From IMG/VR virus record IMGVR_UViG_3300029203_000004: a DNA stretch of 64,000 nt. One strand, 5' to 3'. The translations under genes and the position numbers were made by a program. The first letter of the stretch is position 1. Each line of letters starts with the position of its first letter. The stretch comes from a virus. This document shows positions 8,535 to 64,000 of this stretch, piece after piece. The notes under the pieces were generated by a model, which was not told the DNA's origin, ran no database searches, and saw only the letters and a program-made list of their open reading frames with translations.

Positions 8535-9608
8535 ATGGAAAACGAAGAAAGAACAATTCAGATTCTCGCTGAAACAATAGATAGGTTAAACAAGACTATA
8601 GAATCACAGAACAGTCTGATTGAGGATTTAAGAAACAGACTTGAAACAATTCAGAACGAATATAGCCCTTCAATTATGACTGTAGGCGTATTGATAGAAA
8701 AATTGAATAATACAAAGACAAGAAGCGGAAAGGTAAGATTTGAAGCATTATCAAAACATATAATGCCATATCTTACCAATCAGCTTTATGACGAGTATGA
8801 TTTTGATGATGCCATTCCTATGTTCAAGGAAGTCCCGTCCGTTGAAAAGCCTGTCAATCGTGACATGATAGATGATATGATCAATGTTATAAAATCAAAG
8901 AGAAAGATAAGCGAATCATCCCAAAAGGCATATCTTTTAATGCTTAAAAGAATATTGTCCGAATCAAAAGAGATGAGCAAATATATCAATGATTATATTA
9001 TCTCACTGAACGTAAAATCTCCTTCAAATATATCTCTTACGGATGAAGAAATAGAATTATTCTGGAATGTCGAGCCGTTTAACGTTACAGAAAAAATTGT
9101 AAAGAAATTGTTTCTGATTCAATGCTATACTGCCATGAGATATTCCGATATTTTCAGATTGAAAGATTCTATGATGGAGGGAAATGTTATTTCGTATATA
9201 TCAAAAAAGACAGGTAAGAACGTTGAGGTTCCTGTACCTTCCAAGATTATAGAAATGATAAAAGAGGTTAGATCGTTCGATAAATACAACATAGAATCTT
9301 CCTTAAAGACTACTATGAATGAAGTTCTACCAACTCTTGGATGTAGAGCAGGTATAAACAAGCAGGTATTTGTAAGACGGGCAAATGTACTCATGAAAGG
9401 CCCGAAGTACCAGTTCATCAAAACACATACAGGACGTAGAACAGCTATTACAAGATGGGCTAATATGGGAATACCAGAAGGAGAACTTAAATCTATGGCT
9501 GGTCATTCTGATATAAGAACCACGAACAGATATATTACTGCAAGCGTATCAAATAAAACTAAAAATATTTTAACGGATGGAAATTTTGGAGAATGTGCTG
9601 TCAATTGA
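8535..9608 (+). CDS. int: Tyrosine recombinase / phage integrase
   Basis: Catalytic pattern AMRYSD (Arg I), HTGRRT (His-x-x-Arg), GHSD (His), TTNRYI (Tyr nucleophile), in the canonical order and spacing. Confidence 0.85.
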   Translation: MENEERTIQILAETIDRLNKTIESQNSLIEDLRNRLETIQNEYSPSIMTVGVLIEKLNNTKTRSGKVRFEALSKHIMPYLTNQLYDEYDFDDAIPMFKEVPSVEKPVNRDMIDDMINVIKSKRKISESSQKAYLLMLKRILSESKEMSKYINDYIISLNVKSPSNISLTDEEIELFWNVEPFNVTEKIVKKLFLIQCYTAMRYSDIFRLKDSMMEGNVISYISKKTGKNVEVPVPSKIIEMIKEVRSFDKYNIESSLKTTMNEVLPTLGCRAGINKQVFVRRANVLMKGPKYQFIKTHTGRRTAITRWANMGIPEGELKSMAGHSDIRTTNRYITASVSNKTKNILTDGNFGECAVN

Positions 9609-19141: not shown

Positions 19142-20124
19142 TCTGATTATCCGTTTATGCACCTGTTATATTCGCAATTACTAGTCTGTCAAAGAGTTTG
19201 TCTCCAAAATACCGTCTGTTTAATTTGTAAATAAACTCGTTGAGATACAACTGTAAGTATTTCCTTTTGATTTTATGGTAGTTGCCCAGCAATGTCCGTT
19301 TTGCATTACTGATTGCGATATGCACCCATTTGAGTGTTTCCTTGGTGGTTTTGGCGTCTGATTTCTCGGTGACGTGCAATTCCACCAGATCGGAGATGTC
19401 AACGTAAGAAGTGCTTTTGTCCGAAAATACGATGGCATCATCCTCCATGCAGTCCCTGACCACGCCGTTGATTCCTTCACTTTGATGGCTATCCAGTACC
19501 CTGGCCTTGAAATAACGCACATGCTTCTCCTTTTTGCCCGTTTCGATATCTTCCAACGGGGTGCTTTCGGCCATCACCGCAACGTTCTGCTTTCCCTCGG
19601 CTCCCCGGCCACGTGTACCCTTGCCTCGCTCGATTTCCTTACTGGCCACCGAAAAGTAACCCTCATCCAGTTCTATCATCCCTTCCAGTGTATACCTTGC
19701 ATCCCGGTTGCCCATCGCCCTGCGGAGTTTGTGTACCATCGCCCATACCGGTTCGTAACGCTTCAATCCTAATTGCTTCTGGAGTTCGTTGGTGGAGAAT
19801 CCCTTTTTTGTGCAACTCATCAGGAACATCGTTTTGTACCACACCAGAAACGGCAGCTTGGAGCTCTCCATGATCGTACCGCTGCGCAACGAGGTGCGGA
19901 AACGGCAACCTTTGCATTCATAACTCCATTTACCCTGTAACCAATAATGGGAAGTGCCCCCGCATCGCTTGCAGACAACCCCTTCCTTATCACGCTGCTC
20001 CTTGAAATGCAAACGACAATCTTCCTCCGAACCGAAATGAGCCGTAAAACTGAATATGTTCATAATCCCTGCTTTTTGAGCGCTAATATACTAAAAATAT
20101 TAGGTGTGTTTGCGGAGAATCAGA
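19142..20124 (-). mobile_element. IS1595-family insertion sequence (983 bp)
   Basis: Terminal inverted repeats TCTGATTATCCG (19142-) and TCTGATTCTCCG (reverse complement of 20113-20124). Flanked by a perfect 8-bp direct repeat AATAAAAA (19134-19141 and 20125-20132). Clearly more GC-rich than its surroundings. Confidence 0.8.
19155..20063 (-). CDS. IS1595-family (ISXO2-like) DDE transposase
   Basis: N-terminal zinc ribbon CKRCGG...CKGCRF, then the ...DEGYF... core typical of DDE_Tnp_IS1595. It fills the IS defined by the IRs and TSD. Confidence 0.85.
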   Translation of the reverse strand: MNIFSFTAHFGSEEDCRLHFKEQRDKEGVVCKRCGGTSHYWLQGKWSYECKGCRFRTSLRSGTIMESSKLPFLVWYKTMFLMSCTKKGFSTNELQKQLGLKRYEPVWAMVHKLRRAMGNRDARYTLEGMIELDEGYFSVASKEIERGKGTRGRGAEGKQNVAVMAESTPLEDIETGKKEKHVRYFKARVLDSHQSEGINGVVRDCMEDDAIVFSDKSTSYVDISDLVELHVTEKSDAKTTKETLKWVHIAISNAKRTLLGNYHKIKRKYLQLYLNEFIYKLNRRYFGDKLFDRLVIANITGA

Positions 20125-21513: not shown

Positions 21514-22803
21514 TTAAATATCTAATGTTCCATCAAAATAATAACCCCTATTGAATTTTATGACAACATCTTCCAATGGTAAAAGGCTTTTGTCTACTTG
21601 GGAAAGGAATGCTCCTAATGTTTCGTATCCGCCTTTCACAAAGCATTTTTCTCCTTTGAACAGTATCTGCATTCTTACCCATGTACTATTGTCCTTCTTT
21701 GTAGATGGTCTTACATCAAAATCAAGAATGTCTATATGCTCATCGACAAGTTTGTCTATCTTTATATCCTTTCCGTCAAACTTTCTTGACACTCTTATAT
21801 TTAAGTCACTAATCTTTGTCATGTGGCTATTATTATTAACTAAAACTTTATTAATTAAGTTTTTAGAATCACAGTGCATCAACATACCCATATAACTCGT
21901 AATTGATTTTGGGTTATTACGTTTTGACGCAAAGTTTTTCTTTATTCTCTTTCTTATTTTGGTATGACCGGGAGTAAAGACAAATCCACCGAAATCTATC
22001 CCTTCTGAAACGGGGAATATCCTGTAATTTTTCTTCATCTCCAACTTTTTTTCATACCACAGGTAATTTCTTATCCTCCACAGCCATTCATGCAACTGTT
22101 TCTTGTCGTGGGATAATATCACCATATCATCGGCAAATCTGAAATAATGCTTTACTTTGAACTGCTCCTTTATAACATGATCCAAAGACCTTAATACCAA
22201 ATGGCTTCCTATCTGAGCGTCAGGATTGCCAATAGCCAGACCTTTGTTGCTGTAATTAAGCGTATTCATAAGCCATAACGCATCCCTGTCTTTCAAGTCT
22301 TTGCTATATGCCTTCTTGTAAACGCTGTGTCTTACGGACGGATAAAACTTCTTAATATCCATTTTCAAAACGTATATTTTTCCGTTTTTGTCCATTTCAA
22401 GCAATGTCCGTTTCATCTTTCTCACAAGGGAATGCTTTTTAACCTTACTTGTAATACCCCTTTTGGGCAGACAGTTATATGAATCAAGTGTAAGGCTTTT
22501 TGTCCATCTGTCCATCATGGGTACCAAAAGGCTGTGCTGGATAATCCTGTCCGGGTAAAACGGGAGTTTGTGTATCTCCCTTACCTTTCCTGCATCAGTC
22601 ACTTTCTCTATCACCTCATACTTGCTTACATGGTATGATTTGTCTTTGAGCATCTGATAAACATTCTGATGATATTCATCCTTATGTTTCTCATAATCCC
22701 TCACACCCCTGTGATTCCTCTTTCCTTTCTTTGCCTTTTCAGCAGCAGAGATAATATTATCCATACTGCCTATCGTTTCAAAAATATTATTCAATCTTTT
22801 CAT
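21514..22803 (-). CDS. DGR reverse transcriptase with a C-terminal extension
   Basis: RT motifs: KMDIKKFYPS, GLAIGNPDAQIGSHL (DGR-type IGNxx[SA]Q motif 4), RFADDMVIL (YxDD-type). It lies directly downstream of a template repeat with A-specific mismatches to a VR. About 100 residues after the thumb region carry no RT motif. Confidence 0.9.
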   Translation of the reverse strand: MKRLNNIFETIGSMDNIISAAEKAKKGKRNHRGVRDYEKHKDEYHQNVYQMLKDKSYHVSKYEVIEKVTDAGKVREIHKLPFYPDRIIQHSLLVPMMDRWTKSLTLDSYNCLPKRGITSKVKKHSLVRKMKRTLLEMDKNGKIYVLKMDIKKFYPSVRHSVYKKAYSKDLKDRDALWLMNTLNYSNKGLAIGNPDAQIGSHLVLRSLDHVIKEQFKVKHYFRFADDMVILSHDKKQLHEWLWRIRNYLWYEKKLEMKKNYRIFPVSEGIDFGGFVFTPGHTKIRKRIKKNFASKRNNPKSITSYMGMLMHCDSKNLINKVLVNNNSHMTKISDLNIRVSRKFDGKDIKIDKLVDEHIDILDFDVRPSTKKDNSTWVRMQILFKGEKCFVKGGYETLGAFLSQVDKSLLPLEDVVIKFNRGYYFDGTLDI

Positions 22804-22962
22804 CTTACGTGCTTTTCTTTGTCCGTTGAGCCAAAGATAACTAACTTTCCATATACCTACAACTGTAAATGTACTAATAAGTTCCCATTCTCAAACAATG
22901 GGTTGTCTTGACATTTTCCATCTTCCTGACGAGGCTTCTGTATAGCAGTAATTTTTTTTAGC

Positions 22963-23072
22963 ACGTTAGCTGCCACCGATGTTCGTGTTCGCATTCGAAG
23001 GGGCATTGTTCGCATTACCATTCCGCAGAGAACAATTGTCGTTGTCCGACTTACCACCAAAGTAAACACCAC
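22963..23072 (-). repeat. DGR template repeat (TR)
   Basis: 110-bp gap-free alignment to 23246-23355 (offset 283). 18 of 19 mismatches fall at TR adenines (minus-strand sense). AAY-rich, with an in-frame TAA, so non-coding. Confidence 0.85.
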
Positions 23073-23205
23073 CATTCTACAGACCGCCTTTTTTCAACTA
23101 ACCGCCTTTGACAGACTTATTTAACTTTGCTGACGCATTTGGTTAGATTTTTAATTATGCAAACTTAAACATTATTAATATATTTTGCAAGTTTTGGGAG
23201 GGGGA

Positions 23206-23224
23206 TTTTTCACTTCGTGAAAAA
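23206..23224 (-). promoter_or_regulatory. Hairpin abutting the stop codon of the DGR target, just 3' of the VR
   Basis: TTTTTCAC-ttc-GTGAAAAA 8-bp stem, flanked by G-runs (gggaggggg / gggttggg). The position matches the VR-proximal hairpin/cruciform described for DGR homing. Confidence 0.45.
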
Positions 23225-25324
23225 TTAGGGTTGGGTTATTGTACAACGAAAGCCGCCACCGAAGTTCGTGAACGCAACCGAAGGGGCATGGTACGCACTA
23301 CCAGGCCGCAGAGAACAATGGTCGTTGATCGACAGACCACCAAAGAAAACACCACGCCTTCCAATCTTACCCGAACCTGCATTTCCCGTAAACCAGTTGT
23401 AATGGCATTCCCCCGTGTGAAGATTGCTTCCCTTGACCTCTCCAATAAGAGAGTTCTTAAAGTTCTTCGTTATGCATCCTTCACCTCTAGCCATAGAACC
23501 GACAAATTCATATGTATTCTCAAAACCGTAAGATTCCCCAGGATTCTTTTCTGTGGCTACATTGTCCGTAGTCAGATTGTTCACGTCATAGGTCTGATAG
23601 ATGTCTATGGATGTAGAATCGTGCATGACACAATCTATCCCACTGTACCACATCCATATATCTCCCCACCCGGCAATACGTCCGCGAATGATAGGCTGTG
23701 TGAAGCATATCTCTATTTCACGGTTTGTAACTGCCGCATTGTCAGGAATACTCCATCCGCTAGTTACAGTTGCATTGACAAACTTGGCTACGATACCCGA
23801 CATCTCCCCGTCAGCCAATCCGTTATGACCTTGGAAGTTGTAGTATTTGTATTTTGTGCTTTCATATTCAAACTCGGTGTCGGGAGCGACATTGTGTTCC
23901 TTTGCGTATGACATGGCAAGCTGCGCTTCAAACATCTTCATGCAAGGACGGTAGTTGTTTATAAGCTGTGAAAAATTGTAAGCAGTTCCTGTTTCTGATG
24001 CTTTAAATCCTTGCCCGTTCATCTTGTAATACACATAAGTCTGACCGTCCGCCTTCTTGAATCTGACGCCTGTCATTTTCCCCCAGCTTGACGCATCGGG
24101 GGCTGAATCGTTGGATGATATTCCTTTTCCGCAAACAGACTGTGCGTGTAGGTCTTTTGTTCTAAACTTAATAAAGAGAAGCGTACACCACACTTCAAGG
24201 TCAAGGGCGAAGGCATTGGCATAAGGATAGTTCTTCGTAATGTCCGGGTTCTTTGCCCTGGCGTATTTCTCAAAATCAAAACGTGATACATTTGTCGTAG
24301 GCCATCCATTTCCTTCCATTATGTTTACGCCTAGATTTCCTACTGATGTTGCTCCTTTTACCGTGTTGTCAAAAATAGATCTCTGCTTCCCATCCTTTAT
24401 CGTGGAGTAACCGATACTCATTCCGAACGGTTTTATCTCTATGGCCGTATCGCCACCGTATGTAAACGGAGCGTCACTGACTAGCCTTCTTTCGTATGTA
24501 TCATCCGTTCCTCCGTTGATTATCCAGAAAGGCTTGGTGTTTACAAGCATAATATCGCTTCCGTCATCTGTTACATCAGTTCCGTCAATAACAATATTTG
24601 ACGGGCTACCGTCAGTCATTTTGAAGAAATTGGTCTGGTCAAGGAATCCTACTACCTTACCGTCCTTTACCTTTGCCGCACGGAAAGAGTTGAGGATAGG
24701 ATGTGATGTCTTGAACTCTTCCTTTCCTATCCATGTCTGAAATACAGGGTCTGTCTGCCCTCTTCTCATTTCCACTCCATATATATTCCCCTGCTGCATC
24801 TTTATCTGTTCGAGAAGCGTTTTGTAGTCATTGGTGAAATCATTTGTGGATAACTCCTTACCGTCCACCTTGTCTACCTTCTTGTCTAGGGCTGTTTTCT
24901 GTGCGGTGGATACAGGCTTTTCTGCATCGGACGTATTGTCCACATTAGACAGACCTATATTGTCTTTCGTTATATTGACATTCCCTGTCCTGTAAGACTG
25001 TTCGGCATTACCTTTCACGCCTATGACGGTATTCTTCTGTGCGCCTTTCTCTATCCCGTCAAGTTTGGTTTTTAACTGGGTAGTAAAGTTGTTGTCGGTA
25101 TGAACATAGTTTTCGTCCATTACCATGCCTTGTCTTATCTTGGACACCGTGACGGATTTGTTCTCTTTAGGGCTTCCCGTCACACATGGTATCATCTCTT
25201 CTCCCGTAGCGGTCTCAACGGGAGGCATCTGTGAAATTTTAAGATTATCTTCCATTATTTTTATAGTATTAATATACGATCTTACACCAAATAAATTTTG
25301 ATAACTTTTAGTTATAAAAGTCAT
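23225..25324 (-). CDS. DGR target: tail-fibre / receptor-binding protein with C-terminal VR
   Basis: N-terminal fibre-like repeats (NFTTQLKTKLDGIEKGA..., LSTNDFTNDYK). The C-terminus carries the VR. Alternative ATG at 25255 (MEDNLKISQ). Confidence 0.8.
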   Translation of the reverse strand: MTFITKSYQNLFGVRSYINTIKIMEDNLKISQMPPVETATGEEMIPCVTGSPKENKSVTVSKIRQGMVMDENYVHTDNNFTTQLKTKLDGIEKGAQKNTVIGVKGNAEQSYRTGNVNITKDNIGLSNVDNTSDAEKPVSTAQKTALDKKVDKVDGKELSTNDFTNDYKTLLEQIKMQQGNIYGVEMRRGQTDPVFQTWIGKEEFKTSHPILNSFRAAKVKDGKVVGFLDQTNFFKMTDGSPSNIVIDGTDVTDDGSDIMLVNTKPFWIINGGTDDTYERRLVSDAPFTYGGDTAIEIKPFGMSIGYSTIKDGKQRSIFDNTVKGATSVGNLGVNIMEGNGWPTTNVSRFDFEKYARAKNPDITKNYPYANAFALDLEVWCTLLFIKFRTKDLHAQSVCGKGISSNDSAPDASSWGKMTGVRFKKADGQTYVYYKMNGQGFKASETGTAYNFSQLINNYRPCMKMFEAQLAMSYAKEHNVAPDTEFEYESTKYKYYNFQGHNGLADGEMSGIVAKFVNATVTSGWSIPDNAAVTNREIEICFTQPIIRGRIAGWGDIWMWYSGIDCVMHDSTSIDIYQTYDVNNLTTDNVATEKNPGESYGFENTYEFVGSMARGEGCITKNFKNSLIGEVKGSNLHTGECHYNWFTGNAGSGKIGRRGVFFGGLSINDHCSLRPGSAYHAPSVAFTNFGGGFRCTITQP
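23246..23355 (-). repeat. DGR variable repeat (VR)
   Basis: Encodes GVFFGGLSINDHCSLRPGSAYHAPSVAFTNFGGGFR, ending 6 codons before the target stop. It differs from the TR almost only at TR-adenine positions. Confidence 0.85.
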
Positions 25325-25531: not shown

Positions 25532-26770
25532 ATGTTGAGAGCTTATAAATATAGAATCTATCCGACAGAAGAACAGAAGGTTTTGCTTGCCAAGACCTTC
25601 GGCTGCTGCCGCTTTGTCTATAACTGGGCACTCAAAATGAAGATTGAAGCCTACAAGCAGGAAAAGAAATCTATTGGCAATGTTGAACTGACCAATCGCA
25701 TGAAGAGGGAATTGAAAACGGAATATGAGTGGTTAGGTGAGGTAAATTCGCAATCTTTGCAAAGTGCGTTGAGAAACCTTGACGCCGCCTTTAAGAACTT
25801 TTTCCGTGATACTCATGCAGTAGGCTTTCCTAAATTAAAAAACAAAAAGGACAGGCAGAGTTTTCAGTGCCCCCAGCATTGTGTCGTGGATTTCGGCAAA
25901 GGAACAATAACCATACCGAAAGTAAAGGATATTCCTGCTGTGTTTCACCGCAAATTCAAGGGAATGGTCAAAACCGTCACCATCAGCATGACACCATCGA
26001 GAAAATACTTCGCTTCCGTATTGGTTGACACAGACATTGAAGAACTTCCGGTAACACCGATACATGACGATACGTGTTTGGGTATAGATTTGGGTATCAA
26101 ATCACTTGCCGTATGTTCTGATGGGAGAACGTTTGACAACCCGAAAAACCTGCAACGAAACCTTGACCGTTTAAAATTGCTTCAAAAGCGGTTGAGCCGC
26201 AAACAGAAAGGTTCTTCAAACCGCAACAAGGCACGCATCCGCGTAGCTAGGCTGCATGAACATATTGCCAATTGCCGTAAAGATAACCTTCACAAAATCA
26301 CCCATACTCTCACGCACGATAGCCAAGTGCGTACCATCTGCATGGAGGATTTGAACGTGAAAGGAATGATGCAAAACCACCACTTGGCACAGGCAGTAGG
26401 TGACGCATCTTTCGGGATGTTTCTTACGCTGCTTAAATACAAATGCAGTTGGTATGGTGTGAACCTCATTCAGATAAACCGATTTGCCCCAAGTTCAAAG
26501 ACTTGCGGAAAATGCGGTTATGTGTATAAAGGATTGAAATTGAGCGATCGCAGTTGGATCTGTCCGGAATGTGGCACACACCATGACCGTGACTTCAATG
26601 CAGCTTGCAATATAAAGGAATTTGGCTTAAAAGCCCTACCCACGGAGCGTGGGAAAGTTAAGCCTGTGGACTGTCCTCTTGTGGATGACCGACCTCGTGT
26701 CCTAAAAAGCAATGACAGGAAGAAGCAGGAAAAGAGAGGATGTGTTGGCATCTCCAATCCGCTAAACTAA
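25532..26770 (+). CDS. tnpB: TnpB (IS200/IS605-family OrfB, RuvC + zinc finger), copy 1
   Basis: MLRAYKYRIYPTEEQ N-terminus. RuvC D/E/D in GIDLGIK, CMEDLNVKGM, HDRDFNAACNI. Zinc finger CGKCG...CPECG. No tnpA adjacent. Confidence 0.9.
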   Translation: MLRAYKYRIYPTEEQKVLLAKTFGCCRFVYNWALKMKIEAYKQEKKSIGNVELTNRMKRELKTEYEWLGEVNSQSLQSALRNLDAAFKNFFRDTHAVGFPKLKNKKDRQSFQCPQHCVVDFGKGTITIPKVKDIPAVFHRKFKGMVKTVTISMTPSRKYFASVLVDTDIEELPVTPIHDDTCLGIDLGIKSLAVCSDGRTFDNPKNLQRNLDRLKLLQKRLSRKQKGSSNRNKARIRVARLHEHIANCRKDNLHKITHTLTHDSQVRTICMEDLNVKGMMQNHHLAQAVGDASFGMFLTLLKYKCSWYGVNLIQINRFAPSSKTCGKCGYVYKGLKLSDRSWICPECGTHHDRDFNAACNIKEFGLKALPTERGKVKPVDCPLVDDRPRVLKSNDRKKQEKRGCVGISNPLN

Positions 26771-28836: not shown

Positions 28837-29994
28837 ATGAATGTATTAAGCCTTTTCGATGGGATGTCGTGCGGACGGATAACACTTTCCGAACTTGGCA
28901 TTTCAGTAGAAAAATACTATGCGTCCGAAGTGGACAAGTTTGCCATAAAGGCAACCATGCAGAATTTTCCTGACATCATACAGGTTGGTGATGTAAGAGA
29001 ACTTGAAGTAAGCAGACTGGATAAGATAGATTTGATAATCGGAGGATCGCCATGTACTAATCTGTCCATGTCTGGCAAGAGAAAAGGGCTTTCAACGAAA
29101 GAAGGCATGGAGGTTCTAGACTTGCAAACGTATCTTGAATTGAAGGAGAACGGTTTTGAATTTGAAGGGCAATCCTATCTGTTTTGGGAATACATACGTA
29201 TATACCACGAACTTATTAAGCGTGGTGACAATCCCAAATTCTTCCTTGAAAATGTGGAAATGGGAAAGAAATGGGAATCTGTGTTCAATGAAACAATGGG
29301 TAGGAAAGGAATACATATCAACTCCGCACTTGTATCGGCACAAAACAGAAGGCGCATATACTGGACGGATATCCATGACGATATTCCACAGCCGGAAGAT
29401 AGGGGAATACTTTTAAAGGATATCCTTGAAGAAGAGGTTGATGAAAAATATTTCTTGTCTGACAAGATGATTGAATGCTTGAAGGGCAGGGTAAAGACGG
29501 AAAAATTCAGTCCTGTCCAGTTTAGCCCTATCAAGTTTCCGTATGAACAAAAGGCTCGCACTATAAATACAAGATTGTTCAAGATGGGTGACAATGACAA
29601 TTACATACAGGTGGATAATGATCCGATATGTGTTGCGATGCGAGGGCGTGAATCAGCCTGCCTTACTCCAAAAAGAACCGAATATGGAAAAAAGATAAGA
29701 AAGGAATATGAAGCCGGGATTGTAAAGGAACAGAGAAAGAACATCCAACAGCTTGAACCTAGGGAAGATGGAAAAACCAATTGCCTTACAACAGTACAAA
29801 AGGACAACTTGGTATTGGTTGATAACGGTAATTTTCGCATTCGTAGGCTTACCCCAACCGAGTGTGCACGGCTTCAAACTATTCCCGAATGGTATATATG
29901 GGATGGAATATCCGATACTCAGCGTTACAAGATGCTTGGGAACGGATGGAATATAGAAACAATCAAACATATATTTAAATATTTAAGACGATGA
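28837..29994 (+). CDS. dcm: DNA (cytosine-5) methyltransferase
   Basis: Motif I LSLFDGMSCG, motif IV GGSPCTNLS, motif VI FLENV, motif VIII AQNRRRIYW, motif X LGNGWN. Confidence 0.9.
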   Translation: MNVLSLFDGMSCGRITLSELGISVEKYYASEVDKFAIKATMQNFPDIIQVGDVRELEVSRLDKIDLIIGGSPCTNLSMSGKRKGLSTKEGMEVLDLQTYLELKENGFEFEGQSYLFWEYIRIYHELIKRGDNPKFFLENVEMGKKWESVFNETMGRKGIHINSALVSAQNRRRIYWTDIHDDIPQPEDRGILLKDILEEEVDEKYFLSDKMIECLKGRVKTEKFSPVQFSPIKFPYEQKARTINTRLFKMGDNDNYIQVDNDPICVAMRGRESACLTPKRTEYGKKIRKEYEAGIVKEQRKNIQQLEPREDGKTNCLTTVQKDNLVLVDNGNFRIRRLTPTECARLQTIPEWYIWDGISDTQRYKMLGNGWNIETIKHIFKYLRR

Positions 29995-46673: not shown

Positions 46674-46772
46674 AGGTAATTATATACGTTTATACACATA
46701 CATATTGACGTTTCACCGTCCCGACTACTGCCGACCACTCCACGTCCTCAACCCCTTCTACCAAGGGTGATA
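46674..46772 (-). ncRNA. 3' omega-RNA scaffold / right-end region of the tnpB-2 element
   Basis: Covers the last 25 sense codons plus the stop of tnpB-2 and the 16 nt after the stop. About 95% identical (5 mismatches in 99 nt) to the gene-less copy at 61330-61428. Homology stops at AATTACCT, which I take as the element boundary. Confidence 0.5.
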
Positions 46773-47862
46773 TTAGTCCGAACCGTTTGATGTTTACCGA
46801 AGCGAGAATGTCACGATCATTGTGCCTTCCGCATTTCGGGCAAACCCATTCACGGTCACTGAGTTTCAATTCACTATTAACGTATCCGCATATACACGTC
46901 TTGGAACTTGCTTCAAAACGTCCGATACGTATAAGGTTGCGTCCATACCATTCGCACTTGTATTCAAGCTGTCGGAAAAACTCGCTCCATGAAACGGATG
47001 ATATGGATTTTGCAAGACGGTGGTTTTTCAACATACCCTTTACATTCAAATCCTCAATGATTATCGTTTGGTTTTCACGGACAATCTTTGATGTGACTTG
47101 ATGCAGGAAATTGTTGCGTTGGTTGGAAACCTTCTCATACTGTCTTGCCAATATTTTCCTTGCCCGTTCTCTTCGGTTGGAACCTTTCTTTGTCTTTGAG
47201 AATCTTCTTTGCAACACCTTTAGTCTTGTTTCCGATTTCTCAAGATATTTGGGATTGGCATACACATCACCGTTCGAACAAACTGCAAAATCCTTTATAC
47301 CGACATCTATACCGATAGACGTATCATATCTGACAGCAGGCTTTACAGGTATTTCCTTTCCATCGTCAACAAGAACAGAAATGAAATATTTACCTGTTGG
47401 TGTCTTGCTTACCGTGACAGAACATACCTTACCGTCAAACTTTCTGTTCGGAAAGAATTTAACCCATCCGATCTTTGGAAGTCTTACCTTGTTGTTGTCA
47501 AGGTCAACAGACACCGAATTTATAGCCTTGTATGACTGTCGGCTGTAATGCTTCGCCTTGAAATTTGGGAAGCCTGTCTTTTCACGGAAGAACTTCACGA
47601 ACGCGCTGTCCATATTTCTTATGGATTGTTGCAGGCACTCGTTTGATACTTCCGAAAGCCATTTCTTTCCATCTTCCTTTTTAAGTTCTGTAAGCATCTT
47701 AGCCAGTTCAACCCATCCTATCTTCGTCTTGTCACGCTGATACGCTTCTATACGTTTACCGAGCATATAGTTATATACAAACCTACAACACCCGAAAGAT
47801 TTGTTGAAGAAAACAATTTGCTCAGGAGTAGGATTAAGTCTATATTTATATGCTCGTTTCAT
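46690..47862 (-). CDS. tnpB: TnpB (IS200/IS605-family OrfB), copy 2
   Basis: MKRAYKYRLNPTPEQ. RuvC D/E/D in GIDVGIK, IIEDLNVKGM, NDRDILASVNI. Zinc finger C.C...CPKCG. Roughly half identical to copy 1 by eye. No tnpA. Confidence 0.9.
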   Translation of the reverse strand: MKRAYKYRLNPTPEQIVFFNKSFGCCRFVYNYMLGKRIEAYQRDKTKIGWVELAKMLTELKKEDGKKWLSEVSNECLQQSIRNMDSAFVKFFREKTGFPNFKAKHYSRQSYKAINSVSVDLDNNKVRLPKIGWVKFFPNRKFDGKVCSVTVSKTPTGKYFISVLVDDGKEIPVKPAVRYDTSIGIDVGIKDFAVCSNGDVYANPKYLEKSETRLKVLQRRFSKTKKGSNRRERARKILARQYEKVSNQRNNFLHQVTSKIVRENQTIIIEDLNVKGMLKNHRLAKSISSVSWSEFFRQLEYKCEWYGRNLIRIGRFEASSKTCICGYVNSELKLSDREWVCPKCGRHNDRDILASVNIKRFGLISPLVEGVEDVEWSAVVGTVKRQYVCV

Positions 47863-47926
47863 ATTGCAAATATAACTATAAATTAAATTATAACATAACT
47901 AATTTTGTTAAATAGTGTTTAATTTG

Positions 47927-48127
47927 TTATAAATGCCATTTATTGCAGACGATATTGCCGCCTAAAATCAAACTACCCGTCACACGTACATCACCATCAA
48001 TAATGATAGCTTGTGACAAATCAAACTCTTTTGGTATATCACTACCATCTAAGGCTATTATCTCATAAAGCCCCTCTGTCGGGCTAAAGCCCCCCCCCTG
48101 TGCTCCCTCGCTTCGCTTCGGTCGCAC
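47927..48127 (-). CDS. Small conserved protein with a GTG start, a 5' G9 tract and pentanucleotide repeats
   Basis: The C-terminal 45 aa (EIIALDGSDIPKEFDLSQAIIIDGDV...) are conserved at protein level with the frame at 63696-63863. The only start is GTG. It is in the same frame as upstream ORF 48152..48556, separated by one TAA and 8 sense codons. Confidence 0.4.
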   Translation of the reverse strand: MRPKRSEGAQGGGFSPTEGLYEIIALDGSDIPKEFDLSQAIIIDGDVRVTGSLILGGNIVCNKWHL

Positions 48128-55654: not shown

Positions 55655-57370
55655 ATGGAAGAAATTGACTTAAAATACCGAGGATTAAAGACTAAGGATG
55701 TTGTCAAATCGCTGAAACGATATGGCAAAAGGGGAATCATACCATATAAAAGCCTTGATTTCGTCCAAAGATATATAGAGGACAGAAGAAGCAAGGGGTA
55801 CAAGGTAAATATGCTTGCCCCACAGAAAGGTTCACAGGAGGCATTTCTAAGGAACAGGGCAGGGATAAAGATACTTCACGGGAATCGTGGGGGAGGAAAA
55901 TCCGTATGCCTTGGAATGGATATACTGAGTTCATGCAACCATCCGTCATTTTCCGCACTTGTTTTCCGTAAGGACAAGACATCCGCAGAAAAAGCGGACG
56001 GTATTCTTAAAGTGGTTTCAAAGATGGTTGAACCTTATGGTGAGTATATTGATTCAAAACGCCTTTCAAGACTTGACGCAGGAGGTGAAATACGATATGA
56101 TTATTTCGGTGATGCCTGCCTGTCGGGAGAAAAAGGCGTAAATGAATTTAAGGATAGACAACAGGGTGGTAACGTTGTGAAGGTGGCGATAGACGAGTGC
56201 TCACAGGCAACGGAACCTATCATAAACTACCTTCAAACGGTATTGCGTTCATCATCAGGACTAAGAACAAGTCTTATAGGCGCGTGCAACCCAAATCCGT
56301 ACAGCGATTTCTGGAGAGCAATGGTATCATGGTGGGTAGACGATGATGGAATAGCAATTCCAGAAAGATCGGGGAAAGTAAGATATTTCTTTCAATATGG
56401 AGATACTATACATGAAACAGCATGGGGTGACAGCCCACAAGAAGTATTTGCTCAGGCAAAAGATTATATCATCGCAAGATTCGGTAAAAATACCAAAATT
56501 GACGAAACAAACTGTAAAAGATACATCAAGAGCATAACCTTTATAGCTTCCGGGCTGGAAGATAACAAGATACTTATGGCTTCCAATCCCGACTATCAGA
56601 AAAACCTTGGAGGAACAGCACAGGAAGTATCCATAAACGCATTAGGTTCATGGAAGCTGATAAAAGGGGGAAACGAGTGGATAACCCGTGACGAAATGGA
56701 GGAAATGTTCTCATCGCAGCCTGTGTTTGACGATTACTTTGAATGTGCTACACTGGATATAGCATACGGTCTTGGTGACGTTTGTGTAATGGGGCACTTC
56801 ATAGGACATCACTTACAAGACCTGGAATGGTCAAACACATTAAAGCCAAGGGATTTAAACCGATGGGTAAGAAACAATCTACGGAAATGGGGAATCGGTG
56901 AAAACAGACTGGCATTTGACGGTCTTGGAGCACCTACATTTCGTGACGCATTCCCCGAAAGCCTGGCAATACTTAGAGGCGTTCCGAAAAGACTAGACAA
57001 AAGCAAGGATGATCAGCCTGTAAGATTCTATTTCGATCTAAGGGCACAGCTTGCCGATGAGATGGTAACACGTATAAAAGGAACAAACCTAGGATATTGC
57101 GGATTCAGTATAAACCCGGAACTTCTTGACAAACCGTATGTGAACAAAACAATACGGGAAGCACTGATGGATCAGAGAAGAGCAATAAGACGTGACGTGG
57201 AAAGGGAAAACGGGAAACTAAGACTGCTGAAAAAACAGGAGGCAAAAAAGATTGTAGGATGCTCGCCCGACTTGATAGAAGGAACATTTTTATACAGGAC
57301 ATATTTTGATATATGCGATGTAATGATTGACATACCTAACGATATAATGGATGAATTAAAATATTTATAA
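55655..57370 (+). CDS. terL: Terminase large subunit
   Basis: Walker A GNRGGGKS, Walker B VKVAIDECSQ; 571 aa; followed by the portal. No small-subunit ORF is seen upstream. Confidence 0.85.
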   Translation: MEEIDLKYRGLKTKDVVKSLKRYGKRGIIPYKSLDFVQRYIEDRRSKGYKVNMLAPQKGSQEAFLRNRAGIKILHGNRGGGKSVCLGMDILSSCNHPSFSALVFRKDKTSAEKADGILKVVSKMVEPYGEYIDSKRLSRLDAGGEIRYDYFGDACLSGEKGVNEFKDRQQGGNVVKVAIDECSQATEPIINYLQTVLRSSSGLRTSLIGACNPNPYSDFWRAMVSWWVDDDGIAIPERSGKVRYFFQYGDTIHETAWGDSPQEVFAQAKDYIIARFGKNTKIDETNCKRYIKSITFIASGLEDNKILMASNPDYQKNLGGTAQEVSINALGSWKLIKGGNEWITRDEMEEMFSSQPVFDDYFECATLDIAYGLGDVCVMGHFIGHHLQDLEWSNTLKPRDLNRWVRNNLRKWGIGENRLAFDGLGAPTFRDAFPESLAILRGVPKRLDKSKDDQPVRFYFDLRAQLADEMVTRIKGTNLGYCGFSINPELLDKPYVNKTIREALMDQRRAIRRDVERENGKLRLLKKQEAKKIVGCSPDLIEGTFLYRTYFDICDVMIDIPNDIMDELKYL

Positions 57371-57376
57371 TTACCT

Positions 57377-59232: not shown

Positions 59233-59418
59233 TGAACGTCATAACATAATAATATTTGGCAAAATAAATCGAACAGATTTTGTACAAGATATTAAGAATC
59301 CCTCTAAGGTGGCAGAAAGGAAACAATCTGCGACTTCTATGCCCTGCGTATGTTGTGACGTTCACACCTACGGAGGGTTTCTTTTTATCACAATTCGTTA
59401 AAATATGAACGTCACAAC
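59233..59418 (+). promoter_or_regulatory. Three copies of a 13-mer (TGAACGTCAYAAC) plus a structured leader upstream of and over the antirepressor start
   Basis: 59233-59245 TGAACGTCATAAC. 59352-59364 GTTGTGACGTTCA is the inverted copy. 59406-59418 TGAACGTCACAAC overlaps the ATG at 59405. CCCTCTAAGGTG (59300-59311) pairs with CACCTACGGAGGG (59365-59377) and is followed by TTTCTTTTT. Confidence 0.4.
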
Positions 59419-60160
59419 GAATGAACTTATTCCTATTAGTGATAATAACGGTAAGAGAGCCGTTAATGCACGTGATTTGCATTCTTTCCTTGAAAGTAAA
59501 AGGGATTTTTCAACATGGATTAAAGATCGCATTAAATCTTATGATTTTATTGAAGGTGTTGATTTTCAATCATTCACCGAAATTGTGGAGCGAGAAATAG
59601 GAGCTACAAAACGAATTGAATATGCTCTGTCAATCAGTATGGCAAAAGAGCTATCTATGATTGAGAACAACGAACGGGGAAGGCAAGCTAGAAAATATTT
59701 TATCGCATGTGAGGAAAACAAGCATGAGCTTTCCCGAAAGGAGCTTGCATTAATGGTAATACAAGCCGAAGAGGAAAAAGAACGGTTGGCTTTGGAGAAT
59801 AAAAAGCAACAGAAACAAATAGAAAAACTACAGCCCAAAGCGGACTTCGCCGACAAAGCCTTTGCAATGGAAGGCAAGTGCGATATAGGACAGGCGGCAA
59901 AGATACTTGGCTTGCCTTTTGGGAGAAACTCTTTGTTCAAGAAACTTCGTGAAGCAGGAGTATTCTTTGCTAATAGGAATGAGCCAAAACAGAAGTATAT
60001 TGATGCTGGGTATTTCGAGATGAAAGAAAAGCCTATTCCAAGAGAGAATCACCCAGGTTTTGTCGTGATGGTTGTTCTATGCACACAAAAAGGTCTTGCA
60101 TACATTAATCACCTGTTTGGCGGAAAACCGTCCGATGGAAAATTGGCGAGAATAGTATAG
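59405..60160 (+). CDS. Phage antirepressor (AntA-like N-domain + KilAC/ANT C-domain)
   Basis: NARDLHSFLESKRDFSTWIKDRIKSYDFIEGVDF (AntA-like). KADFADKAFAMEGKCDIGQAAKILGLPFGRNSLFKKLREAGVFF...KQKYIDAGYF (KilAC). Confidence 0.75.
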   Translation: MNVTTNELIPISDNNGKRAVNARDLHSFLESKRDFSTWIKDRIKSYDFIEGVDFQSFTEIVEREIGATKRIEYALSISMAKELSMIENNERGRQARKYFIACEENKHELSRKELALMVIQAEEEKERLALENKKQQKQIEKLQPKADFADKAFAMEGKCDIGQAAKILGLPFGRNSLFKKLREAGVFFANRNEPKQKYIDAGYFEMKEKPIPRENHPGFVVMVVLCTQKGLAYINHLFGGKPSDGKLARIV

Positions 60161-60669: not shown

Positions 60670-60712
60670 AGTTAAAATGTATTTAGTTTTACAAAGTTAC
60701 AAAATAAACACA

Positions 60713-60720
60713 TACATTTG
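60713..60720 (+). promoter_or_regulatory. -7 promoter box (TAcaTTTG) for the Panacea-domain gene
   Basis: Exact match 38 nt upstream of the ATG at 60758. Confidence 0.4.
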
Positions 60721-60757
60721 CACACATAATAAAACATTTTATAAAGCATATACAAAA

Positions 60758-61198
60758 ATGTATAAATCAAGACAAATAGCAGATTGGATAATACATAAGA
60801 CACATGGCAATATAACACATTCAAAATTACAAAAATTGTTATATTATTGCCAAGCGTGGCATTATACAATTTTCAATGAGGTTTTATTTGATGAAAGAAT
60901 TGAAGCATGGGCGCACGGCCCTGTTGTACCATCCCAATTCAGCAGATTTAATAACATAGATTTTTTCCAAAACATAAAAGTAAAAGATTGTGAGAACATT
61001 AAACTGAAAAGTAAAACAGAACAATTACTGAACGAAGTTGTTGGAATATACAATAAATGTACTGATAGACACCTTGAATTATTGGTAAAAAGAGAAGATC
61101 CTTGGAGAGAAACAAGAGGGAATATACCAGAGTTTAAGAAATGCCAAAAAGAAATAAAATTGGACCTAATGAAACAATATTATATAAATCTAAATTAA
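60758..61198 (+). CDS. Panacea (DUF4065 / SocA / GepA-like) domain protein
   Basis: ITHSKLQKLLYYCQAWHYTIFNEVLFDERIEAWAHGPVVPSQF is the DUF4065 core pattern (KLQKLLYY...AW..GPV). ATG at 60758 preferred. Confidence 0.7.
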   Translation: MYKSRQIADWIIHKTHGNITHSKLQKLLYYCQAWHYTIFNEVLFDERIEAWAHGPVVPSQFSRFNNIDFFQNIKVKDCENIKLKSKTEQLLNEVVGIYNKCTDRHLELLVKREDPWRETRGNIPEFKKCQKEIKLDLMKQYYINLN

Positions 61199-61254
61199 AG
61201 TTGAAAACCCAATTTTTGTCGCATAAAACAGTTGGAAATATAAAACATTATATT

Positions 61255-61262
61255 TACCTTTG
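61255..61262 (+). promoter_or_regulatory. -7 promoter box (TAccTTTG) upstream of the orphan omega-RNA-like segment
   Basis: Exact TAnnTTTG match in ORF-free DNA, 68 nt upstream of 61330. It shares TACCTTTGCA.TAT with the box at 61695. Confidence 0.35.
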
Positions 61263-61329
61263 CATTATCATAAAGCATCCGTTAATGGATATAGCTTAAA
61301 TAGTTATTTTCATGCAAAAACTAAATTAG

Positions 61330-61428
61330 TATCACCCTTGGTAGAAGGGGTTGAGGACGTGGAGTGGTCGACAGTAGTCGGGGCGGTGAAGCGTCAATAT
61401 GTACGTATATAAACGTATATAATTACCT
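61330..61428 (+). ncRNA. Gene-less copy of the tnpB-2 3' end / right end (orphan omega-RNA scaffold or IS remnant)
   Basis: 99 nt with 5 mismatches to the reverse complement of 46674-46772. No tnpB ORF is attached. It is bracketed by a promoter box (61255) and a strong terminator (61434-61472). Confidence 0.55.
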
Positions 61429-61433
61429 TAATA

Positions 61434-61472
61434 AGCAAGAAATAGATTGGACCCTTTTTCTTGCTTTTTTTT
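61434..61472 (+). terminator. Rho-independent terminator
   Basis: AGCAAGAAA-(14 nt)-TTTCTTGCT 9-bp stem running into T8. Confidence 0.6.
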
Positions 61473-63863: not shown

Positions 63864-64000
63864 GACTGCCCCTGTGCAGCTAGACTGCCCCTGTGCAGCT
63901 AGACTGCCCCTGTGCAGCTAGACTGCCCCTGTGCAGCTAGACTGCCCCTGTGCAGCTAGACTGCCCCTGTGCAGCTAGACTGCCCCTGTGCAGCTAGACT
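63864..64000. repeat. Perfect 19-bp tandem repeat, at least 7.2 copies, running off the window
   Basis: Unit GACTGCCCCTGTGCAGCTA (period 19, first copy at 63864, next at 63883, and so on), with no variant positions seen. Each unit carries TAG on both strands, so every frame on either strand hits a stop within 3 units. Confidence 0.9.

What the first reader, a model, noticed from the sequence alone, without database searches (positions are those of the whole stretch)
61199..61472. Gene-less copy of the TnpB-2 omega-RNA / right-end segment with its own promoter box and terminator
61330-61428 (+) matches the reverse complement of 46674-46772 with 5 mismatches in 99 nt. That region covers the last 25 sense codons plus the stop of tnpB-2 and the 16 nt after the stop. 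In IS200/IS605 elements this part forms the 3' portion of the omega/reRNA scaffold.

Homology starts abruptly at TATCACCC and ends at AATTACCT in both copies. At 61 kb no tnpB ORF is attached.

The five differences would change 4 of 25 residues if translated, so this copy is not kept as coding sequence.

The segment sits in ORF-free DNA, 68 nt downstream of an exact TAccTTTG promoter box, and is followed 5 nt later by a strong terminator (9-bp stem plus T8).

Two readings are possible:
- A stand-alone guide RNA gene used in trans by the phage's intact TnpB, whose guide would start at about 61429 (TAATAAGCAAGAAATAG...).
- A decayed IS remnant or PATE.

The first reading would be a natural trans-encoded TnpB guide in a phage.
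Basis: partly seen in the sequence, partly recalled or inferred. Interest (0 to 1): 0.72.

Follow-up and report, generated by a model that had tools for sequence, protein, structure and literature searches.

The report
Orphan TnpB right-end/guide-scaffold remnant
A 100-base piece of a phage-borne TnpB transposon, carrying its right end and guide-RNA scaffold but no gene, sits between a promoter and terminator that were there first; it is a recurring relic in related gut phages and might still supply a guide RNA, which is untested.

Summary
The repeat is real. Window 61327-61428 (+) matches the reverse complement of 46674-46775, the 3' end of tnpB-2 plus 16 nt, at 94% over 102 nt.

It is not peculiar to this genome. 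The same module occurs 63 times in 62 IMG/VR phage loci. Thirty-five copies are attached to a 98-99% identical tnpB, in at least 12 insertion sites. Twenty-seven are gene-less.

The gene-less copies fall into four groups:
- 137-143-bp mini-elements (left end 39 nt + right end 99 nt) at six sites.
- A second mini type.
- Two left-end-less types. One is the window's type and is present in 14 further phage contigs.

Six sister phages carry the empty allele. It already has the TAccTTTG box and the terminator, so these signals are native and not dedicated to the orphan.

The parent element is not a canonical IS200/IS605. It has GG-initiated terminal inverted repeats and makes 7/8-bp target duplications after an AAA motif.

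The 99 nt form a conserved, covarying three-hairpin RNA module. The orphan matches the family model as well as the gene-attached copy does.

Best reading: a left-end-less relic of a PATE/MITE-like mini-element. Trans use by the intact TnpB-2 against the empty allele is possible but unproven, and the idea is already in the literature.

The parts
61330..61428 (+). Orphan right-end / guide-RNA-scaffold module. It is 99 nt, and homology to the tnpB-2 copy extends to 61327. Predicted hairpins: H1 61332-61354, H2 61356-61395 (long-range GACG/CGTC closing an inner hairpin), H3 61398-61421, then the tail UUACCU.
   Evidence: Homologous modules with covariation in relatives.
61415..61427 (-). Right terminal inverted repeat GGTAATTATATAC. 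It matches the left-end terminus GGCATTTATAAC of the full-length element.
   Evidence: Relatives have a 12/13 TIR, GGCACTTATATAC / GGCACTTATATCC.
61319..61329 (+). Left junction AACTAAATTA+G. The 10-mer is native to the locus but identical to the left-end-internal 10-mer that precedes the same junction (..AAATTAG|TATCACC) in the 138-bp mini-elements.
61255..61262 (+). TAccTTTG box, a Bacteroidota -7-type promoter motif. It is native and also present in the empty alleles.
61433..61472 (+). Intrinsic-terminator-like hairpin plus T8. It is native and also present in the empty alleles.
61428..61445 (+). TTAATAAG (the right copy of the predicted 8-bp target duplication) plus the following bases. 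If the RNA is used by TnpB-2, this is the would-be guide. It matches the empty allele, where it is preceded by AAA.
46674..47937 (-). Full-length 1264-bp TnpB-2 element. Left end 47863-47937, tnpB-2 CDS 46690-47862, right end/scaffold 46674-46772.
57364..57376 (+). Unoccupied target of a full-length insertion seen in other phages (L026/L036/L040/L046; TSD TATTTATA). It also happens to read TATAATTACCT like the right-end terminus.

Best explanation
**What it is**
The segment is a non-autonomous, left-end-less remnant (a 'solo right end') of a small transposon family. The family lives in a clade of uncultured Bacteroidota phages, and its only gene is an ISDra2-like TnpB.

**The parent family (shown)**
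- The 1264-bp parent element has GG-initiated terminal inverted repeats.
- It inserts with a 7/8-bp target duplication just after an AAA motif.
- It has spawned gene-less mini-elements, joined at ..AAATTAG|TATCACC.. (39 nt of left end + 99 nt of right end).

**How the window copy arose**
- It carries that same junction (shown).
- Its right junction (ACC|TTAATAAG) is exactly what a canonical insertion at AAA|TTAATAAG would give (shown).
- A mini-element therefore most likely inserted between a pre-existing promoter box and terminator. It then lost left-end bases 1-28 through a deletion between two copies of AACTAAATTA (inferred).
- It can no longer transpose. It is inherited and shuffled by recombination among related phages, where occupied and empty alleles coexist (shown).

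**Possible activity**
- The 99 nt are the complete structured 3' module of the family's guide RNA (shown computationally).
- The module lies in sense orientation inside a native transcription unit, so it is probably transcribed (inferred).
- The RNA could load into the intact TnpB-2 made from 46.7 kb. It would direct TnpB-2 to the empty allele of co-infecting phages, converting them by homologous repair (inferred; about 0.2-0.3 likely).
For: **Family census**
- 63 exact 25-mer matches in 62 IMG/VR loci: 35 gene-attached and 27 gene-less.
- Mini-elements of 137-143 bp sit at six sites. One (L055) is at the very site of the window's tnpB-2.
- The window-type orphan occurs in 14 further contigs with an identical left junction.

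**Empty alleles and ends**
- Six empty alleles contain the same promoter box, the 10-mer and the terminator.
- Target duplications were verified against empty sites for five independent full-length insertions: TAAACGAA, TAAGAAAT, TTAGGTAT, TACGTAAC, TATTTATA. Each is preceded by AAA. A sixth, approximate case is L034. L145 in a 71%-identical relative shows the same.
- TIRs.

**RNA module**
- Three hairpins, z = -2.0 to -2.4.
- Among 25 distinct variants, 99.5% of stem cells are paired and only wobble-compatible alleles occur. 10 of 500 shuffles reach this.
- Hairpin 1 covaries across relatives: GC/UA/CG and AU/CG/UA/GC.
- The orphan scores 121.8 bits against 121.9 for the gene-attached copy.

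**TnpB-2 is intact**
- E = 3e-79 to ISDra2 TnpB, with the D/E/D residues conserved.
- The core is under purifying selection: segregating sites 25/16/94 by codon position.
Against: - The predicted progenitor junction (left TSD + left-end start at this locus) was not found in IMG/VR or JGI metagenomes; only chance hits came back.
- A native 10-mer identical to left-end sequence lies exactly at the junction. By chance this is unlikely. Integration may therefore have been homology-directed and not transposition followed by deletion.
- The mini-elements themselves mostly lack clean target duplications: L009 has 2-3 bp and L028 a degenerate ~6 bp. Some may have spread by gene conversion of full-length copies and not by transposition.
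- The transposase is unidentified.

Against the functional part:
- 8 of 14 orphan-bearing contigs, one of them 93.5 kb, show no tnpB-2.
- In 7 of 15 copies the bases right after the terminus differ (TACCT expansions, a 4-nt deletion, or other flanks). That would destroy a guide matching the empty allele.
- The would-be guide is buried in the terminator stem.
Confidence: 0.75

Rival explanations
1. It is a dedicated stand-alone guide-RNA gene. The orphan is kept by selection because its transcript, loaded in trans into the phage's TnpB-2, cuts a specific target. That target could be the empty allele of competing phages or another site, giving the phage or the locus an inheritance advantage.
For: - Sense orientation between a conserved TAnnTTTG box and a terminator.
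- Scaffold as intact as in gene-attached copies.
- Structure-preserving polymorphism.
- Intact, conserved TnpB-2 in the same genome.
- A natural target exists: the empty allele reads AAA|TTAATAAGCAAGAAATAG, the same AAA|T context as every verified insertion target.
- Gene-less copies tend to be co-oriented with a neighbouring gene (crude ORF calls).
Against: - Promoter and terminator pre-date the insertion.
- The guide region is not conserved: 7 of 15 copies are altered right after the terminus.
- More than half of the orphan-bearing contigs show no tnpB-2.
- Diversity in the orphan (1.5%) is no lower than in the shared flank, so there is no sign of extra constraint.
- Its variants look imported from other family copies, i.e. 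gene conversion, which would keep it intact without selection.
- There is no second match to the guide in the window.
Confidence: 0.2
2. It is the last surviving piece of a full-length tnpB element that once sat at this locus and decayed in place.
For: In-situ reduction does occur in the family. Mini-elements L055, L015 and L006 sit at sites that hold full-length copies in other phages.
Against: - Everything upstream of the junction, including the last 10 nt, is native and present in the empty alleles. No tnpB or left-end remnant exists.
- The junction is nucleotide-identical to that of mini-elements at six other sites. This points to a shared mini-element ancestor and not an independent local decay.
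- No full-length copy with this right flank appeared among about 50 examined.
Confidence: 0.05
3. It is an intragenomic segmental copy, made in this phage by ectopic recombination of the tnpB-2 3' end, with no element biology behind it.
For: The two window copies are in one genome and 94% identical.
Against: - The identical orphan with identical junctions is present in 14 other contigs, 8 of them without detectable tnpB-2.
- Its right boundary is the transposon terminus, and its left boundary is the mini-element junction.
Confidence: 0.01

Closest known systems
PATEs: gene-less IS200/IS605 derivatives that retain the ends and often an omega-RNA (Meers et al., bioRxiv 10.1101/2023.03.14.532601)
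   Same: - No protein gene.
- Derived from a TnpB element.
- Retains the right end with the guide-RNA scaffold.
- Any nuclease activity would need TnpB supplied in trans, which that paper states explicitly.
   Different: - The window copy has lost the left end, so it is not a complete PATE. The family's complete minis (137-143 bp) are the true PATE analogues.
- The family has TIRs and 7/8-bp target duplications, which IS200/IS605 elements and their PATEs do not have (PMC13565253).
- The setting is a phage population with occupied and empty alleles.
ISDra2 TnpB and its omega/reRNA (PDB 8exa, 8bf8, 8h1j)
   Same: - TnpB-2 aligns over residues 3-366 at E = 3e-79 with the RuvC D/E/D residues conserved.
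- The structured RNA module overlaps the 3' end of the gene and ends at the transposon terminus.
   Different: - ISDra2 is moved by a Y1 TnpA, has TAM TTGAT, and has no TIR or TSD.
- Here no tnpA lies in the element, the ends are inverted repeats and insertions duplicate 7/8 bp after AAA.
- The scaffold is only about 99 nt. The 71%-identical relatives have about 145-165 nt.
TnpB/Fanzor genes carried by TIR/TSD (DDE-type) transposons (Yoon et al. 2023, PMC10711439; review PMC13565253)
   Same: - A TnpB-family gene as the sole cargo of a non-autonomous TIR element that makes short TSDs.
- The TIR forms the 3' end of the RNA scaffold, and the TSD lies at the scaffold-guide boundary.
   Different: - Those cases are mostly eukaryotic or from giant viruses.
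- Prokaryotic examples are described as rare and linked to other IS families (ISL2, IS630 and IS1031 as written in the review).
- Here the partner transposase is unknown and the host is a tailed phage of Bacteroidota.
IS1595/Merlin-type DDE elements and their MITEs
   Same: - Termini begin with GG and the TSD is 8 bp (PMC8101967).
- A complete IS1595-family IS with an 8-bp TSD sits in the same window.
   Different: - That IS has different IRs (TCTGATT..) and a different target register.
- It is absent from the other phage contigs.
- No DDE gene has been tied to the TnpB-2 ends. The resemblance is a lead, not a membership.

Membership tests
IS200/IS605 family (IS1341-type, tnpB-only) - parent element | Encodes a TnpB (OrfB_IS605, RuvC D-E-D, zinc ribbon) | tested here: met
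   Pfam hits at 1e-28, 4e-21 and 5e-21. Alignment to ISDra2 TnpB with the catalytic residues conserved.
IS200/IS605 family (IS1341-type, tnpB-only) - parent element | No terminal inverted repeats and no target-site duplication; insertion 3' of a 4-5-nt target | tested here: not met
   - TIR GGCATTTATAAC / GGTAATTATATAC, and 12/13 identical in relatives.
- 7/8-bp duplications confirmed against empty sites in five insertions.
- The family definition is taken from PMC13565253.
IS200/IS605 family (IS1341-type, tnpB-only) - parent element | Structured guide RNA overlapping the 3' end of tnpB and ending at the right end | tested here: met
   Conserved three-hairpin module, covariation in hairpin 1, invariant GGACG..GAAACGTCAA. 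This is computational only. No Rfam family matches.
PATE/MITE-like non-autonomous mini-element | No ORF; both transposon ends retained | tested here: not met
   The window copy has the right end only. At most 11 nt resemble the left end, and 10 of them are native. The criterion is met by the family's 137-143-bp minis in other phages.
PATE/MITE-like non-autonomous mini-element | Multiple copies at different sites sharing one internal deletion junction | tested here: met
   The junction AAATTAG|TATCACC is shared by minis at six sites plus two left-end-less loci.
Functional trans-acting omega/reRNA gene | Complete scaffold able to bind its TnpB | tested here: inconclusive
   The orphan holds every predicted hairpin and scores like the gene-attached copy. 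Whether upstream coding sequence is also needed is unknown.
Functional trans-acting omega/reRNA gene | Is transcribed and processed | not testable with these tools
   Only a TAnnTTTG box (95 in the window against 71 expected) and a terminator. Both are native.
Functional trans-acting omega/reRNA gene | Cognate intact nuclease in the same genome | tested here: met
   Met in the window. Not met in 8 of 14 other orphan-bearing contigs, which may be incomplete genomes.
Functional trans-acting omega/reRNA gene | Guide conserved and matching a TAM-flanked target | tested here: inconclusive
   A target exists: the empty allele preceded by AAA. But 7 of 15 copies have altered bases at the guide start, and the TAM is only inferred.
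IS1595/Merlin-type DDE transposon (non-autonomous member) | GG-initiated TIRs and 8-bp TSD | tested here: met
   Family traits from PMC8101967.
IS1595/Merlin-type DDE transposon (non-autonomous member) | Mobilised by a DDE_Tnp_IS1595 transposase recognising these ends | tested here: inconclusive
   The window's IS1595-family IS has unrelated termini and target register, and is absent from sister phages. No partner was found.

The most novel reading that the evidence does not exclude
The orphan is an RNA-only gene drive. It is transcribed from the native promoter and borrows TnpB-2 in trans. It guides cleavage of the unoccupied allele (AAA|TTAATAAGCAAG..) in co-infecting sister phages and is copied in by homologous repair. 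On this reading it parasitises the TnpB element, which sits in a TIR/TSD-type and not an IS605-type transposon. The same logic would apply to the family's 138-bp minis.
Probability: 0.2. Interest if true: 0.72.

Novelty: new member of a known kind. Interest (0 to 1): 0.4.

Why it matters
The orphan on its own is an ordinary kind of object: a relic of a non-autonomous transposon derivative.

The comparative picture around it is useful. It offers a natural phage population in which four things coexist and can be tested together:
- one TnpB family at 98-99% identity;
- its gene-less guide-bearing minis;
- a solo right end;
- matched occupied and empty alleles.

This makes three questions directly testable:
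- Can TnpB guides act in trans from gene-less loci?
- Does TnpB drive homing between co-infecting phages?
- How does an ISDra2-like TnpB co-function with a TIR/TSD-type (apparently DDE-like) transposition mechanism? That arrangement is described as rare in prokaryotes.

The analysis also yields a candidate target/TAM motif (AAA followed by a T-initial 8-mer) and a compact scaffold of about 99 nt.

Tried and rejected
- **Known phages:** DNA search of both loci against 50,697 phage records gave no relative of the orphan locus and only weak tnpB hits. By capsid protein the phage is only distantly related to Parabacteroides phages, 29% identity.
- **Rfam:** gathering and permissive scans gave no omega-RNA-type family, only chance hits on the terminator.
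- **Bacterial genomes:** the 25-mer of the module has no exact match in 185,579 genomes. At this identity the family appears to be confined to phages.
- **Progenitor search:** I looked for the predicted left TSD + left-end junction at this locus. There was one chance hit in IMG/VR and six chance hits in JGI metagenomes, none real.
- **Window's IS1595-family transposase as the mobilising enzyme:** rejected. Its termini differ, its target register differs, and it has no homologue in sister phage contigs.
- **Upstream 128 nt as a diverged left end or decayed tnpB 5' region:** rejected. Position-by-position comparison of my own shows identity beyond the 11-mer at background level, and the sequence is present in the empty alleles.
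- **Diversity comparison:** orphan versus flanks has no power, about 1.5% in both.
- **Generic promoter/terminator scan:** uninformative for Bacteroidota promoters, and it missed the large-loop terminator.

Full report
**Observation**

The repeat is real. The longest inverted repeat in the window pairs 46674-46775 with 61327-61428 (102 nt, 94%). Within TATCACCC..AATTACCT there are 5 mismatches in 99 nt, and similarity ends abruptly at both sides.

The 46.7-kb copy is the 3' end of ORF 46690..47862 (-). This is a 390-aa TnpB carrying HTH_OrfB_IS605, OrfB_IS605 and Cas12f1-like_TNB. It aligns to ISDra2 TnpB at E = 3e-79 with the RuvC D/E/D residues in place. The 61-kb copy has no tnpB attached.

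TACCTTTG lies 67 nt upstream. A 10-bp stem plus T8 starts 4 nt downstream (-12.3 kcal/mol, z = -3.2).

**The module is a family, not a one-off**

An exact 25-mer from the segment occurs 63 times in 62 IMG/VR loci.
- Thirty-five copies are attached to a tnpB 97.7-99.5% identical to TnpB-2.
- Twenty-seven are gene-less.
- A protein-based scan found 181 related loci; the best 80 were kept and inspected, and they fall at 98-99%, about 71%, 62-66% and 52% identity.
- No exact match exists in 185,579 bacterial and archaeal genomes.

The phage is uncultured and only distantly related to Parabacteroides phages.

The full-length element is 1264 bp. Its left end is conserved: GGCATTTATAAC..AAAATTAG TTATG..TATATTTGCAAT-ATG. 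It occupies at least a dozen different sites.

**The parent element is not a canonical IS200/IS605**

Comparison with unoccupied sites in sister contigs and in the window shows genuine 7-nt duplications. They become 8 nt if the terminal T is counted. Five independent insertions show this: TAAACGAA, TAAGAAAT, TTAGGTAT, TACGTAAC and TATTTATA. A sixth is approximate. Each is preceded by AAA in the empty site. Other copies have small flanking deletions or recombinant flanks.

The termini are imperfect inverted repeats, GGCATTTATAAC / GGTAATTATATAC. In the 71%-identical relatives the TIR is 12/13 (GGCACTTATATAC), and one of them (L145) again shows the duplication after AAA.

IS200/IS605 and IS607 elements have neither TIRs nor TSDs (PMC13565253; PMC6188088 abstract). 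TnpB homologues inside TIR/TSD transposons are well known for Fanzors (PMC10711439). They are described as rare in prokaryotes (PMC13565253).

GG termini and 8-bp TSDs are hallmarks of IS1595/Merlin elements (PMC8101967). However, the complete IS1595-family IS that happens to lie in the window (19142-20124, TSD TTTTTATT) is not the partner:
- its termini and target register differ;
- it is a widespread Bacteroidota IS;
- it is absent from the sister phages.

The mobilising enzyme remains unknown.

**Gene-less copies**

| Class | Composition | Where found |
|---|---|---|
| B | Left-end bases 1-39 joined to the last 99 nt (..AAATTAG\|TATCACC..), 137-143 bp | Six sites; L055 sits where the window has tnpB-2 |
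| C | A variant left end with a different junction | Two sites; L006 sits where L018 has a full-length copy |
| A (window type) | Class-B junction, unrelated sequence further upstream | 14 further contigs |
| D | Class-B junction, unrelated sequence further upstream | Three contigs, one site |

**The empty allele of the window locus**

Relatives of the upstream SocA/Panacea-domain gene include six contigs that read ..TACCTTTG..(about 70 nt)..AAAAAACTAAATTA|ATAAGCAAGAAATAGATTGGACCCTTTTTCTTGCTTTTTTTT.

Three things follow.
- The promoter box and the terminator are native and pre-date the insertion.
- The right junction ACC|TTAATAAG is what a canonical insertion at AAA|TTAATAAG would give.
- The 10-mer AACTAAATTA at the left junction is native, yet identical to the left-end sequence that precedes the junction in the minis.

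The simplest history is insertion of a class-B mini, followed by a deletion between the two 10-mers. I could not find the intermediate. The coincidence of the 10-mer is unexplained: it occurs once in the window against 0.45 expected. Homology-directed integration is an alternative.

The promoter-orphan-terminator cassette occurs behind two different upstream contexts and before several downstream ones, so it is shuffled by recombination.

**The 99 nt as RNA**

They fold into three hairpins plus a long-range GACG/CGTC helix (z = -2.0 to -2.4).

Among 25 distinct family variants, 99.5% of stem cells pair. Variable stem positions show only compatible combinations, for example GU/AU/GC, UG/CG/UA and GC/GU/AU. 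Ten of 500 column shuffles do as well.

In the divergent relatives the 3' module is longer (about 145-165 nt) but homologous:
- hairpin 1 shows true compensatory changes;
- GGACG..GAAACGTCAA is invariant;
- the terminus ..ATATAAnnnCCT is conserved.

Protein homology between TnpB-2 and those relatives stops at residue 363. This is exactly the orphan's left boundary.

Among 43 intact tnpB-2 genes the core has segregating sites 25/16/94 by codon position, which indicates protein constraint. Codons 363-390 have 7/6/4, and 9 of 12 variable codons change the residue. So the tail is constrained as nucleic-acid structure and not as protein.

The orphan's five 'non-synonymous' differences are ordinary family polymorphisms. 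A covariance model scores the orphan 121.8 bits against 121.9 for the gene-attached copy, with nothing else in the window above 13.

**Could it work as a guide in trans?**

For:
- sense orientation inside a native transcription unit;
- complete predicted scaffold;
- intact TnpB-2 in the same genome;
- a natural target (the empty allele) with the same AAA context as all verified insertion targets. In the occupied allele the corresponding bases are TTACC, which would give self/non-self discrimination.

Against:
- the signals are not dedicated to the orphan;
- 8 of 14 other orphan-bearing contigs, one of them 93.5 kb, show no tnpB-2;
- 7 of 15 copies have TACCT expansions, a small deletion or a different flank right at the guide start;
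- the guide lies in the terminator stem;
- there is no excess conservation;
- the orphan's variants suggest refreshment by gene conversion from other copies.

That gene-less PATEs carry omega-RNAs to be used in trans has already been stated (bioRxiv 10.1101/2023.03.14.532601).

**Verdict**

The object is a left-end-less relic of a PATE/MITE-like mini-element. The mini-element belongs to a phage-borne, TIR/TSD-type TnpB transposon. It is a new member of a known kind.

Its possible role as an RNA-only homing element remains open, at about 0.2 probability, and is now concretely testable.

Noticed in passing
window 19142-20124 (-): A complete 983-bp IS1595-family insertion sequence.
- ORF 19155..20063 carries DDE_Tnp_IS1595 plus the zinc ribbon.
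- IRs are TCTGATTCTCCG / TCTGATTATCCG, with a perfect 8-bp TSD TTTTTATT.
- The transposase is 100% identical to copies in many Bacteroidota genomes (Bacteroides faecalis, B. luti, B. gallinarum, Odoribacter, Chryseobacterium and others) and absent from IMG/VR contigs.
- This suggests a recent hop from the host, and it names the host phylum.
   Followed up: yes
window 21514-25324 (-): A diversity-generating retroelement.
- Reverse transcriptase ORF 21514..22803.
- Template repeat 22953-23072 and variable repeat 23236-23355, the latter inside the 3' end of ORF 23225..25324.
- 20 of 23 mismatches are A-to-N on the coding strand.
   Followed up: partly
window 25532-26770 (+): A second, different TnpB (412 aa, tnpB-1) with its own unrelated 3' region. 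No orphan copy of its 3' region was seen in the window.
   Followed up: partly
window 63864-64000: A perfect 19-nt tandem repeat, GACTGCCCCTGTGCAGCTA, with at least 7 copies. It runs off the end of the window.
   Followed up: no
Right-end termini in L004, L005, L008, L011, L038, L047; L022, L026, L033, L051: The very end of the element is unstable. The last five bases are present one to three times (ACCT, ACCTTACCT, ACCTTACCTTACCT), and the last 14-29 nt are tandemly duplicated in several copies, gene-attached and orphan alike.
   Followed up: partly
window 61255-61472 and empty alleles L063/L065/L066/L071/L076/L083: Without the orphan, the locus is a ~110-nt promoter-to-terminator unit with no ORF, conserved in sister phages. 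A third haplotype (L067, L075, L078, L079) has a different terminator. It could be a native small RNA that the insertion interrupts.
   Followed up: no
window ~2.7 kb, ~28.77 kb, 57364-57376, ~58.9 kb, ~63.5 kb: The window holds the unoccupied versions of five sites that carry full-length TnpB-2 elements in other phages (the L052, L034, L026, L051 and L041 sites). The 57.37-kb site also reads TATAATTACCT, identical to the element's own terminus.
   Followed up: partly
window 60677-61198 (+), 59405-60160 (+), 8535-9608 (+), 28837-29994 (+): Neighbouring genes:
- a SocA/Panacea-domain antitoxin-like protein directly upstream of the orphan;
- an AntA/KilAC antirepressor;
- a tyrosine integrase, which suggests a temperate lifestyle;
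- a C5 cytosine methyltransferase.
   Followed up: partly
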